64,000 nucleotides of DNA from Escherichia coli (GCF_016026235.1 NZ_CP065613.1); one strand, 5' to 3'. Counted from the first letter of the stretch, positions 61,550 to 63,481 are shown. Translations and numbers: made by a program. Notes: generated by a model not told the origin, from the sequence alone.

Positions 61550-63481
61550 ATGAGTTATCAGGTCTTAGCCCGAAAATGGCGCCCACAAACCTTTGCTGAC
61601 GTCGTCGGCCAGGAACATGTGCTGACCGCACTGGCGAACGGCTTGTCGTTAGGGCGTATTCATCATGCTTATCTTTTTTCCGGCACCCGTGGCGTCGGAA
61701 AAACCTCTATCGCCCGACTGCTGGCGAAGGGGCTAAACTGCGAAACCGGCATTACCGCGACGCCGTGCGGCGTGTGCGATAACTGTCGTGAAATCGAGCA
61801 GGGGCGCTTTGTCGATCTGATTGAAATCGACGCCGCCTCGCGCACCAAAGTTGAAGACACTCGCGACCTGCTGGATAACGTCCAGTACGCTCCGGCGCGT
61901 GGTCGTTTCAAAGTTTATCTGATCGACGAAGTGCATATGCTGTCGCGCCACAGCTTTAACGCATTGTTAAAAACCCTTGAAGAGCCGCCGGAGCACGTTA
62001 AGTTTCTGCTGGCGACGACCGATCCACAGAAATTGCCGGTGACGATTTTGTCACGCTGTCTGCAATTTCATCTCAAGGCGCTGGATGTCGAGCAAATTCG
62101 CCATCAGCTTGAGCACATCCTCAACGAAGAACATATCGCTCACGAGCCGCGGGCGTTGCAATTGCTGGCGCGCGCCGCTGAAGGCAGCCTGCGAGATGCC
62201 TTAAGTCTGACCGACCAGGCGATTGCCAGCGGTGACGGCCAGGTTTCAACCCAGGCGGTCAGTGCGATGCTGGGTACGCTTGACGACGATCAGGCGCTGT
62301 CGCTGGTTGAAGCGATGGTCGAGGCCAACGGCGAGCGCGTAATGGCGCTGATTAATGAAGCCGCTGCCCGTGGTATCGAGTGGGAAGCGTTGCTGGTGGA
62401 AATGCTCGGCCTGTTGCATCGTATTGCGATGGTACAACTTTCGCCTGCTGCACTTGGCAACGACATGGCCGCCATTGAGCTGCGGATGCGTGAACTGGCG
62501 CGCACCATACCGCCGACGGATATTCAGCTTTACTATCAGACGCTGTTGATTGGTCGCAAAGAATTACCGTATGCGCCGGACCGCCGCATGGGCGTTGAGA
62601 TGACGCTGCTGCGCGCGCTGGCGTTCCATCCACGTATGCCTCTGCCTGAGCCAGAAGTGCCACGCCAGTCCTTTGCGCCCGTCGCGCCAACGGCAGTAAT
62701 GACGCCAACCCAGGTGCCGCCGCAACCGCAATCAGCGCCGCAGCAGGCACCGACTGTACCGCTCCCGGAAACCACCAGCCAGGTGCTGGCGGCGCGCCAG
62801 CAGTTGCAGCGCGTGCAGGGAGCAACCAAAGCAAAAAAGAGTGAACCGGCAGCCGCTACCCGCGCGCGGCCGGTGAATAACGCTGCGCTGGAAAGACTGG
62901 CTTCGGTCACCGATCGCGTTCAGGCGCGTCCGGTGCCATCGGCGCTGGAAAAAGCGCCAGCCAAAAAAGAAGCGTATCGCTGGAAGGCTACCACTCCAGT
63001 GATGCAGCAAAAAGAAGTGGTCGCCACGCCGAAGGCGCTGAAAAAAGCGCTGGAACATGAAAAAACGCCGGAACTGGCGGCGAAGCTGGCGGCAGAAGCC
63101 ATTGAGCGCGACGCGTGGGCGGCACAGGTGAGTCAACTTTCGCTACCAAAACTGGTCGAACAGGTGGCCTTAAATGCCTGGAAAGAGGAGAGCGACAACG
63201 CAGTATGTCTGCATTTGCGCTCCTCTCAGCGGCATTTGAACAACCGCGGTGCACAGCAAAAACTGGCTGAAGCGTTGAGCATGTTAAAAGGTTCAACGGT
63301 TGAACTGACTATCGTTGAAGATGATAATCCCGCGGTGCGTACGCCGCTGGAGTGGCGTCAGGCGATATACGAAGAAAAACTTGCGCAGGCGCGCGAGTCC
63401 ATTATTGCGGATAATAATATTCAGACCCTGCGTCGGTTCTTCGATGCGGAGCTGGATGAAGAAAGTATCCGCCCCATTTGA
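61550..63481 (+). CDS. dnaX: DNA polymerase III subunits tau (full length) and gamma (by -1 frameshift)
   Basis: 643-aa ORF; Walker A GTRGVGKTS; internal slippery site. Confidence 0.97.
   Translation: MSYQVLARKWRPQTFADVVGQEHVLTALANGLSLGRIHHAYLFSGTRGVGKTSIARLLAKGLNCETGITATPCGVCDNCREIEQGRFVDLIEIDAASRTKVEDTRDLLDNVQYAPARGRFKVYLIDEVHMLSRHSFNALLKTLEEPPEHVKFLLATTDPQKLPVTILSRCLQFHLKALDVEQIRHQLEHILNEEHIAHEPRALQLLARAAEGSLRDALSLTDQAIASGDGQVSTQAVSAMLGTLDDDQALSLVEAMVEANGERVMALINEAAARGIEWEALLVEMLGLLHRIAMVQLSPAALGNDMAAIELRMRELARTIPPTDIQLYYQTLLIGRKELPYAPDRRMGVEMTLLRALAFHPRMPLPEPEVPRQSFAPVAPTAVMTPTQVPPQPQSAPQQAPTVPLPETTSQVLAARQQLQRVQGATKAKKSEPAAATRARPVNNAALERLASVTDRVQARPVPSALEKAPAKKEAYRWKATTPVMQQKEVVATPKALKKALEHEKTPELAAKLAAEAIERDAWAAQVSQLSLPKLVEQVALNAWKEESDNAVCLHLRSSQRHLNNRGAQQKLAEALSMLKGSTVELTIVEDDNPAVRTPLEWRQAIYEEKLAQARESIIADNNIQTLRRFFDAELDEESIRPI
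62833..62873 (+). promoter_or_regulatory. dnaX programmed -1 ribosomal frameshift signal (slippery A AAA AAG plus downstream stem-loop)
   Basis: AAAAAAG at 62833..62839; -1 frame reaches TGA at 62842..62844; GC-rich hairpin CCGGCAGCCGC...GCGCGGCCGG follows. Confidence 0.85.

What the first reader, a model, noticed from the sequence alone, without database searches (positions are those of the whole stretch)
62833..62873. Canonical dnaX -1 programmed frameshift signal is present and intact
The slippery heptamer A AAA AAG (62833..62839) is followed in the -1 frame by GAG TGA (stop at 62842..62844) and a GC-rich stem-loop. This gives the gamma subunit (~431 aa) alongside full-length tau (643 aa). 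It is a known feature and serves as a positive control that the sequence is of high quality in this region.
Basis: established knowledge. Interest (0 to 1): 0.2.

Follow-up and report, generated by a model that had tools for sequence, protein, structure and literature searches.

The report
Intact E. coli dnaX frameshift signal
This is the textbook signal inside the E. coli dnaX gene that makes about half of the ribosomes slip back one base, so that one gene yields both the long (tau) and the short (gamma) subunit of the replicative DNA polymerase; it is present, intact and entirely ordinary.

Summary
A_AAA_AAG lies at 62833..62839 in the shift-prone phase of a 643-codon dnaX ORF (61550..63481). 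After a -1 slip the ribosome reads GAG, then TGA (62842..62844), giving a 431-aa gamma. The hairpin is at 62845..62874. Rfam RF00382 (DnaX frameshifting element) matches 62814..62878 over its full length at 96.8 bits (cut-off 35). These 65 nt are identical to K-12 MG1655, where RefSeq annotates the joined gamma CDS ending at the same TGA. The heptamer alone is not above chance: 20 occur in the window against 15.7 expected. However, only this copy is in phase in a real gene with the SD, the adjacent -1 stop and a strong hairpin. The heptamer/stop core is exact in 5402 of 5426 complete E. coli genomes. In 43 distinct Enterobacterales cassettes the hairpin is kept through compensatory changes. 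Actual frameshifting was not measured here; it is inferred from experiments on the identical K-12 sequence. Verdict: already known, low interest, a valid check of sequence quality. In passing: an ISEc60 insertion interrupts amtB.

The parts
61550..63481 (+). dnaX zero-frame ORF encoding tau (643 aa plus stop)
   Evidence: ORF list and translation. NCBIfam PRK07994 equivalog 981.5 bits, cut-off 613. Pfam DNA_pol3_delta2 20-178, lid 182-230, gamma3 232-358, tau_4 417-498, tau_5 500-640. 18 nt differences from K-12: 17 synonymous plus P522A.
61550..62844 (+). Extent of the gamma product: 430 zero-frame codons, a -1 slip on the heptamer, then GAG and TGA (431 aa)
   Evidence: The K-12 RefSeq gamma CDS 492092..493386 (joined, two pieces) maps exactly onto these coordinates. 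The PDB holds a 431-aa chain, 8giy_B, aligned to query residues 1-430.
62817..62822 (+). Internal Shine-Dalgarno-like stimulator AGGGAG, with 10 nt (62823..62832) between it and the heptamer
   Evidence: Sequence read. Lies within the Rfam RF00382 match. It is the only heptamer in the window with a GGAG at a 10-nt spacer. The 10-nt position and stimulatory role are given in PMC4344849 and PMC5389563.
62833..62839 (+). Slippery heptamer A_AAA_AAG in the X_XXY_YYZ phase (codons 429-430 = Lys-Lys)
   Evidence: The 30-nt core containing it is exact in 5402 of 5426 complete E. coli genomes.
62842..62844 (+). TGA stop codon in the -1 frame, one codon (GAG) after the shift
   Evidence: It is the end of the K-12 gamma CDS.
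62845..62874 (+). Stimulatory hairpin: lower helix 62845-62850/62869-62874, A:G apposition 62851/62868, upper helix 62852-62856 with 62862-62864 and 62866-62867, bulged C 62865, loop 62857-62861
   Evidence: MFE -19.7 kcal/mol with the same pairs as the Rfam consensus structure. In 43 distinct Enterobacterales cassettes 87.7% of cells are paired, against 28-52% when the partners are slid. Compensatory changes occur at 5 of 11 pairs. Every orthologue folds to a hairpin in the same place. The 30-mer is exact in 5390 of 5426 E. coli genomes.
62814..62878 (+). Whole cassette as modelled by Rfam RF00382 (DnaX ribosomal frameshifting element)
   Evidence: 96.8 bits against a gathering score of 35, E = 3.6e-21, model positions 1-65 of 65. 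Identical to K-12. RefSeq sequence_feature 'DnaX frameshifting element' at the same place in FDAARGOS_943.

Best explanation
This is the programmed -1 ribosomal frameshift cassette of Escherichia coli dnaX. Ribosomes translating dnaX reach codons 429-430 (AAA AAG) with tRNA-Lys in the P and A sites. At that point the AGGGAG 10 nt upstream is paired with the 3' end of 16S rRNA, and the hairpin that starts 5-6 nt downstream sits at the mRNA entry channel, so translocation is impeded from both sides. The two tRNA-Lys can re-pair one base back on A_AAA_AAG (AAA AAA), and a large fraction of ribosomes enter the -1 frame. Those ribosomes read GAG, stop at TGA and release gamma (431 aa: clamp-loader domains I-III plus the first residues of domain IV). 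Ribosomes that stay in frame make tau (643 aa), which additionally carries the DnaB-binding domain IV and the polymerase-alpha-binding domain V. Shown here: the presence, phase, spacing, fold, family membership and conservation of all four sequence elements. Inferred from published experiments on the identical K-12 sequence: that frameshifting actually occurs, its efficiency (about 50% in vivo, up to about 80% in some assays) and the roles of the SD and the hairpin.
For: Phase and -1 stop come from direct reading and translation. Rfam RF00382 matches full length at 96.8 bits against a cut-off of 35. The 65 nt are identical to K-12 MG1655, where a joined gamma CDS ends at the same TGA. RefSeq annotates a 'DnaX frameshifting element' at this site. 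The hairpin fold equals the Rfam consensus. It is the only heptamer of 20 with the right phase in a real gene, an SD at 10 nt, an adjacent -1 stop and a strong fold. The core is exact in 5402 and the hairpin in 5390 of 5426 complete genomes. Across 43 distinct Enterobacterales dnaX cassettes the hairpin persists with compensatory changes: A-U to G-C at the closing pair in 11 sequences, and further double changes at four other pairs. No shuffle out of 500 reached the observed covariation score, and the slid controls are far lower. Three different upper-stem solutions fold at -17 to -30 kcal/mol in the same position. The shift point lies after domain III (Pfam gamma3 232-358) and before most of domains IV and V. 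Literature: the three signals and their spacing (PMC4344849); mutating the SD, hairpin or heptamer lowers in vitro frameshifting from 84% to 50%, 20% and 2% (PMC5389563); about 50% shifting in vivo with termination one codon later, and gamma being part of the holoenzyme (PMC5009743).
Against: Nothing contradicts it. Four limits apply. (1) No expression data exist for this strain, so frameshifting itself is inferred. (2) The heptamer count in the window is at chance level. (3) The hairpin's energy is only about 2 sd better than shuffles of the same G+C-rich sequence. (4) The cross-species set was collected with a pattern that fixes the SD, heptamer and GAGTGA, so conservation of those columns is by construction and only the hairpin columns are a free test. 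The hairpin also lies in tau coding sequence, so part of its conservation may be protein constraint. Against that, the closing-pair covariation couples a synonymous GAA-to-GAG change with a non-synonymous change 29 nt away.
Confidence: 0.98

Rival explanations
1. Chance co-occurrence: an A-rich Lys-Lys dipeptide and a G+C-rich Ala/Arg/Pro-coding stretch happen to look like a frameshift cassette but have no recoding function.
For: AAAAAAG is not enriched in the window (20 observed against 15.7 expected). Two more copies lie in dnaX itself (62963, 63041). The hairpin's z-score is only -1.93. The same 28-nt SD-N10-heptamer-GAGTGA pattern also occurs in unrelated genomes, for example at the start of a Collinsella sigma-factor gene.
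Against: The full-length Rfam match has E = 3.6e-21. The two other dnaX heptamers are out of phase and lack the SD and a nearby -1 stop. The hairpin is maintained by compensatory substitutions and by alternative upper stems across Enterobacterales. The sequence is identical to the experimentally dissected K-12 cassette (PMC5389563).
Confidence: 0.005
2. Gamma is made by another route, either transcriptional slippage of RNA polymerase on the A run (as in Thermus thermophilus dnaX) or proteolysis of tau (as in Caulobacter crescentus), and the cassette is incidental.
For: Both routes exist in other bacteria (review PMC5009743). The site does contain a homopolymeric A6 run.
Against: According to the same review, efficient transcriptional slippage needs runs of about 9 A or T, and here the run is 6. 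In E. coli the short product is reported to come from ribosomes shifting to -1 and terminating one codon later (PMC5009743). A synonymous, non-slippery G_AAG_AAG reduces shifting to 2% in purified translation systems where no transcription occurs (PMC5389563). The conserved SD and hairpin would have no role in either alternative.
Confidence: 0.01
3. The cassette is intact in sequence, but its output in this strain differs from K-12 because of strain-specific changes elsewhere (synonymous changes in dnaX, the P522A tau variant, tRNA-Lys modification status).
For: dnaX differs from K-12 at 18 positions, one of them non-synonymous (P522A). The literature gives efficiencies from about 50% to about 80% depending on assay and context.
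Against: No difference lies between 62678 and 62988, so nothing within 155 nt on either side of the heptamer differs from K-12. The three known cis-elements are identical. The same dnaX sequence occurs at 100% identity in a RefSeq genome and at 99.9% or more in many others.
Confidence: 0.03

Closest known systems
E. coli K-12 dnaX -1 programmed ribosomal frameshift cassette (Rfam RF00382). From my own knowledge: Tsuchihashi & Kornberg 1990; Flower & McHenry 1990; Larsen et al. 1994. Seen in the reference list of PMC6771820: Blinkowa & Walker 1990; Larsen et al. 1997.
   Same: Everything: the 65-nt cassette is identical base for base. It sits at the same gene position (codons 429-430), with the same SD spacing (10 nt), the same GAG-TGA -1 tail, the same hairpin with an A:G apposition and a bulged C, and the same 643/431-aa products.
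   Different: Only the surrounding gene differs: 18 substitutions, 17 synonymous plus P522A in tau domain V, none within 155 nt of the heptamer.
dnaX cassettes of other Enterobacterales (Enterobacter/Serratia type and Pantoea/Erwinia/Mixta type)
   Same: SD-like AGGGAG, 10-nt spacer, A_AAA_AAG, GAG-TGA, and a two-part hairpin whose 6-bp lower helix starts 5-6 nt after the heptamer.
   Different: The upper stem differs. It is GCGC/GCGC with an 8-nt loop in Enterobacter and Serratia, or with a 5-nt loop in Pantoea and Erwinia, whereas E. coli has GCCGC/GCG-C-GC with a bulged C. The closing pair is G-C instead of A-U in 11 of the 43 distinct sequences.
IS3-family (IS911, IS150, IS3) OrfAB -1 frameshift sites
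   Same: They use A_AAA_AAG-type heptamers, often with an upstream SD-like stimulator and a downstream structure (PMC5009743: an SD stimulator in an estimated 56% of IS elements).
   Different: There the shift fuses two overlapping ORFs to make a longer transposase, and IS911 uses a three-way junction. Here the shift truncates the protein at an immediate stop. No IS3-family element is involved at this site.
Thermus thermophilus dnaX (transcriptional slippage) and Caulobacter crescentus dnaX (proteolysis)
   Same: The same biological outcome: a tau and a shorter gamma from one gene, in roughly 1:1 ratio (PMC5009743).
   Different: The mechanisms differ: RNA polymerase slippage on a longer A run, or post-translational cleavage. 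The window has only A6 plus the full ribosomal frameshift signal set.

Membership tests
DnaX ribosomal frameshifting element (Rfam RF00382) | Covariance-model score at or above the curated gathering threshold, over the full model | tested here: met
   96.8 bits against a threshold of 35, E = 3.6e-21, model positions 1-65 of 65, not truncated.
DnaX ribosomal frameshifting element (Rfam RF00382) | Located inside a dnaX (tau) ORF, after clamp-loader domain III | tested here: met
   NCBIfam PRK07994 at 981.5 bits. Pfam gamma3 ends at residue 358, tau_4 spans 417-498, tau_5 spans 500-640, and the shift is at codons 429-430.
DnaX ribosomal frameshifting element (Rfam RF00382) | Slippery heptamer A_AAA_AAG in X_XXY_YYZ phase with the zero frame | tested here: met
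   62833 is the third base of codon 428.
DnaX ribosomal frameshifting element (Rfam RF00382) | Stop codon in the -1 frame immediately downstream, so that the shifted product is truncated (gamma) | tested here: met
   GAG then TGA at 62842..62844. This coincides with the end of the K-12 gamma CDS.
DnaX ribosomal frameshifting element (Rfam RF00382) | Internal Shine-Dalgarno-like sequence 10 nt 5' of the heptamer | tested here: met
   AGGGAG at 62817..62822 with spacer 62823..62832 = 10 nt. The spacing is as stated in PMC4344849.
DnaX ribosomal frameshifting element (Rfam RF00382) | Stable hairpin of about 11 bp starting 5-6 nt 3' of the heptamer | tested here: met
   MFE structure 62845..62874 at -19.7 kcal/mol with 11 pairs, the same as the Rfam consensus. 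Supported by covariation in 43 orthologues. The z-score against shuffles is modest at -1.93.
DnaX ribosomal frameshifting element (Rfam RF00382) | Ribosomes actually shift to -1 at high frequency and gamma is produced | not testable with these tools
   This requires protein or reporter data. It is inferred from experiments on the identical K-12 sequence (PMC5389563, PMC4344849, PMC5009743).
DnaX ribosomal frameshifting element (Rfam RF00382) | Host decodes AAA and AAG with a single tRNA-Lys (mnm5s2UUU), which makes AAG shift-prone | not tested
   The tRNA-Lys genes were not sought here. The property is stated for E. coli in PMC5009743, and the window is E. coli chromosome, 99.9% identical to strain FDAARGOS_943.

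The most novel reading that the evidence does not exclude
The only reading with any novelty that the data leave open concerns the hairpin's upper stem. Its three lineage-specific architectures are the E. coli type with a bulged C, the Enterobacter/Serratia type with an 8-nt loop, and the Pantoea/Erwinia type with a 5-nt loop and up to -30 kcal/mol. These might set different gamma:tau ratios in different Enterobacterales. The E. coli version here would then be one deliberately sub-maximal setting; the review notes that two substitutions in the stem raise shifting to 176% of wild type. This would be a comparative refinement of a known system, not a new one, and nothing in this window itself departs from K-12.
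Probability: 0.15. Interest if true: 0.25.

Novelty: already known. Interest (0 to 1): 0.05.

Why it matters
As a discovery it does not matter. The dnaX frameshift has been a model system for -1 recoding since 1990, and it is annotated automatically by RefSeq. Its value here is as a control. It shows that the window is accurate through a homopolymer run where sequencing errors would be easy to make and immediately visible. It also shows that the first-stage reader can locate a recoding signal to the base. Finally, the check gives a compact comparative picture of 43 distinct Enterobacterales cassettes, in which the hairpin is conserved as a structure rather than as a sequence.

Tried and rejected
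1. I tested whether the heptamer alone is significant. It is not: 20 observed against 15.7 expected, and 20 of 100 shuffles reach 20. The argument therefore rests on the conjunction of features.

2. I tested the hairpin energy against shuffles. The z-score is only -1.93, so single-sequence folding is weak evidence and I turned to covariation. RNAalifold recovered only the lower helix plus one pair (7 pairs, covariation term -0.36). The reason is that the upper stem is built differently in different clades, so a single consensus structure under-describes it. Per-sequence folds show this.

About 40 were Collinsella, where the pattern is the ribosome-binding site plus GTG start of a sigma-70 gene. 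The rest were scattered single hits with no tau homology. These were set aside as pattern coincidences.

4. I could not list the roughly 20-35 E. coli genomes whose core or hairpin differs, because the search tool lists only the top-ranked or evenly spaced rows. I therefore do not know which bases vary in them.

5. Larsen et al. 1997 (PMC7126992) is not held in the library. Spacing and stem details are cited from PMC4344849 and PMC5009743 instead.

6. The weak Rfam hit STnc460 at 63332..63421 (25.3 bits against a threshold of 70, E = 0.12) was rejected as chance.

Full report
**Observation**

The window carries a 643-codon ORF at 61550..63481 on the + strand. Reading, AAAAAAG occupies 62833..62839. 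Position 62833 is the third base of codon 428 (GCA). The zero frame therefore reads GCA|AAA|AAG|AGT|GAA, and the heptamer is in the A_AAA_AAG (X_XXY_YYZ) phase.

Translating from 62833 gives K-K-E-stop. After a -1 slip the ribosome reads GAG (62839..62841) and then TGA (62842..62844). The product is 430 zero-frame residues plus one Glu, 431 aa in all.

**Is it more than chance?**

The heptamer on its own is not. There are 20 copies on both strands of the window against 15.7 +/- 3.8 expected, and 20 of 100 shuffles reach 20.

The hairpin on its own is only mildly unusual. It folds at -19.7 kcal/mol, with z = -1.93 against dinucleotide shuffles of this very G+C-rich stretch, and 7 of 200 shuffles fold as well.

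The conjunction of features is decisive. I tabulated all 20 heptamers:
- Only three are in the shift-prone phase of the longest open frame that covers them.
- Of these, 38292(-) lies antisense to mdlA and 50671(+) lies in the tomB-acrB intergenic region. I placed both by mapping their coordinates onto the K-12 annotation.
- Only 62833 is in phase in a real gene, has GGAG at a 10-nt spacer, meets a -1 stop after one codon, and has the most stable 40-nt downstream fold (-19.1 kcal/mol).
- The two other copies inside dnaX (62963, 63041) are in phase 0 (AAA AAA G) and lack all of these features.

**Identity of the gene and the element**

The protein matches the NCBIfam equivalog PRK07994, 'DNA polymerase III subunit gamma/tau', at 981.5 bits against a cut-off of 613.

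Pfam places the domains as follows:

| Domain | Residues |
|---|---|
| ATPase module | 20-230 |
| Domain III (DNA_pol3_gamma3) | 232-358 |
| Domain IV, DnaB-binding (tau_4) | 417-498 |
| Domain V, alpha-binding (tau_5) | 500-640 |

The shift at codons 429-430 therefore removes nearly all of domain IV and all of domain V.

Rfam family RF00382 (DnaX ribosomal frameshifting element) matches 62814..62878 over the whole model at 96.8 bits (gathering score 35, E = 3.6e-21). Its consensus structure is the same as the single-sequence MFE fold:
- lower helix 62845-62850 with 62869-62874;
- an A:G apposition at 62851/62868;
- upper helix 62852-62856 with 62862-62864 and 62866-62867;
- a bulged C at 62865;
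- loop UACCC.

This is the internal Shine-Dalgarno-like AGGGAG at 62817..62822, exactly 10 nt before the heptamer. Yan et al. describe the arrangement as an internal SD 10 nt upstream and an 11-bp hairpin 6 nt downstream (PMC4344849). The window matches this. The spacer is 6 nt if the closing A-U pair is not counted and 5 nt if it is.

**Comparison with K-12 and the E. coli population**

The 65-nt cassette is identical to K-12 MG1655. K-12 RefSeq annotates both tau (492092..494023) and a two-piece joined gamma CDS (492092..493386). The latter maps onto window 61550..62844 and so ends at the same TGA.

dnaX as a whole differs from K-12 at 18 of 1932 positions: 17 synonymous changes plus P522A. 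None lies between 62678 and 62988. At about 0.9% divergence, identity over 65 nt is not remarkable in itself.

Population counts across 5426 complete genomes:

| Query | Result |
|---|---|
| 2.2-kb region around dnaX | present once in 5424 genomes; the listed rows carry 'dnaX' and 'DnaX frameshifting element' annotations |
| 65-nt cassette | found in 5423 genomes, 5372 of them at 99% identity or more |
| 30-mer with heptamer and -1 stop | exact (at least 28 of 30) in 5402 genomes |
| 30-mer of the hairpin | exact (at least 28 of 30) in 5390 genomes |

The PDB holds full-length tau, and a 431-residue chain (8giy_B) that aligns to residues 1-430 of this protein.

**Cross-species test of the hairpin**

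I scanned one genome per species with AGGGAG-N(9-11)-AAAAAAGAGTGA. tblastn with tau showed that just under half of the loci lie inside dnaX of Enterobacterales, including Citrobacter, Enterobacter, Kluyvera, Pluralibacter, Kosakonia, Siccibacter, Serratia, Pantoea, Erwinia and Mixta. These gave 43 distinct 65-nt cassettes including the window.

The SD, heptamer and stop are fixed by the search pattern, so only the hairpin columns are a free test. Results for the E. coli structure:
- 87.7% of cells are standard pairs, against 28-52% when the 3' partners are slid by 1-3 columns.
- Five of the 11 pairs show changes on both sides. The closing pair is A-U in 29 sequences and G-C in 11. There is a G-C to A-U change at columns 36/57 and another at 42/50. 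At 43/49, two sequences have C-G changed to G-C. At 41/51, one sequence has changed on both sides.
- No shuffle out of 500 reaches the observed covariation score.

Each orthologue, folded on its own, gives a two-part hairpin at -17 to -30 kcal/mol. In almost all of them the six-pair lower helix starts 4-6 nt after the heptamer. Where the fold begins earlier, it is because extra outer pairs extend that same helix.

The upper stem comes in three architectures:
- the E. coli type, with a bulged C;
- GCGC/GCGC with an 8-nt loop;
- GCGC/GCGC with a 5-nt loop.

For this reason RNAalifold recovers only the lower helix as a consensus. The structure is kept while the sequence, and the tau peptide it encodes, change. 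That argues the RNA fold itself is under selection. The caveat is that the sequences are related and sit in coding DNA.

**Mechanism**

Shown here: all four cis-elements are present, correctly phased and spaced, folded as expected and conserved.

Inferred from published work on the identical sequence:
- The SD:anti-SD duplex behind the ribosome and the hairpin at the mRNA entry channel impede EF-G-driven translocation while the two tRNA-Lys occupy A_AAA_AAG.
- The tRNAs re-pair in the -1 frame.
- Mutating the SD, deleting the hairpin or making the heptamer non-slippery reduces in vitro shifting from 84% to 50%, 20% and 2% (PMC5389563).
- In vivo, about half of the ribosomes shift and terminate one codon later, and gamma is a genuine holoenzyme component (PMC5009743).
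- E. coli's single tRNA-Lys, which pairs more strongly with AAA than with AAG, explains why this heptamer is so shift-prone (same review).

**Rivals**

- Chance resemblance is excluded by the Rfam score, the specificity table and the covariation.
- Transcriptional slippage (Thermus) needs runs of about 9 A, and here there are 6.
- Proteolysis (Caulobacter) would give the SD and hairpin no role, and is not what is reported for E. coli.
- A strain-specific change in output cannot be excluded without measurement, but no cis-difference lies within 155 nt of the site.

**Verdict**

This is a known feature, correctly identified and intact. It is a member of RF00382 on every sequence-level criterion. 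Only the biochemical criterion, actual gamma synthesis, cannot be tested here. It works as a positive control for sequence quality through a homopolymer run. Interest is low.

**Context noticed in passing**

The window is collinear with K-12 435899..494542 (thiL to recR) and is 99.93% identical to strain FDAARGOS_943. It differs from K-12 by two accessory segments, and from both strains by an ISEc60 insertion in amtB. Details are in the separate list.

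Noticed in passing
window 41261..42577 (insertion about 41275..42563); amtB pieces at 41121..41333 and 42592..43710: A roughly 1.3-kb IS4-family element interrupts the ammonium transporter gene amtB near codon 51. RefSeq names matching copies 'IS4-like element ISEc60'. It has 22-nt terminal inverted repeats (41272-41293 / 42549-42570) and a transposase ORF on the - strand that matches NCBIfam transpos_IS4_2 at 264 bits. It is flanked by an imperfect 14-nt direct repeat of amtB sequence (TCCGGGGATTGCCC / TCAGGGGATTGCCC). K-12 and the otherwise 99.93%-identical strain FDAARGOS_943 have an intact amtB, although FDAARGOS_943 carries at least 36 ISEc60 copies elsewhere. At most one of 5426 complete genomes covers the junction-spanning query at 80% or more.
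   Followed up: partly
window 1203..3169 (ORF 1383..2939, - strand): A segment of about 2 kb between pgpA and yajO is absent from K-12. It encodes an intact 518-aa pentapeptide-repeat protein, with weak hits to PipB2 and HetL pentapeptide-repeat models. In FDAARGOS_943 the same gene is annotated as a frameshifted pseudogene. The adjacent yajO is only 95.8% identical to K-12, against about 99% for the rest of the window.
   Followed up: partly
window 12561..14926 (ORFs 12957..13892 +, 13948..14490 -, 14474..14851 -): A segment of about 2.4 kb between yajR and cyoE is absent from K-12. In FDAARGOS_943 it is annotated as a tetratricopeptide-repeat protein plus a DUF1778 / GNAT-family N-acetyltransferase pair. 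That gene pair has the layout of a GNAT-toxin/DUF1778-antitoxin module; this reading is my own and was not tested.
   Followed up: partly
window 59389..59526: A 138-nt stretch in the mscK-ybaM (rsmS) intergenic region resembles, in inverted orientation and at 82.6% identity, K-12 430956..431093 between yajD and tsx. It is presumably a dispersed intergenic repeat and was not classified.
   Followed up: no
L005 2457..2484 (+), L041 8478..8505 (+), L045 9769..9796 (-), and about 40 other Collinsella loci: The full 28-nt pattern AGGGAG-N10-AAAAAAGAGTGA also occurs at the start of a 448-aa sigma-70-type gene in many Collinsella genomes. There AGGGAG is the ribosome-binding site and GTG the start (M-P-K-K-S-E...). 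The heptamer is in the A_AAA_AAG phase at codons 2-4, with GAG-TGA in the -1 frame. This resembles the minimal dnaX constructs used in vitro. It is probably coincidence. No downstream hairpin was evident by eye and none was tested by folding, and the tRNA-Lys repertoire was not examined. The loci are near-identical, so their conservation is uninformative.
   Followed up: partly
window 62874..62876: The +1/-2 frame is also closed right after the hairpin. A TGA at 62874..62876 overlaps the 3' end of the stem, so ribosomes leaving the heptamer in either alternative frame terminate within 37 nt. Whether this matters is unknown.
   Followed up: no
window 63113 (dnaX codon 522): The only amino-acid difference from K-12 tau is P522A in domain V (the alpha-binding domain). 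The same protein is annotated as WP_000122007.1 in FDAARGOS_943.
   Followed up: no
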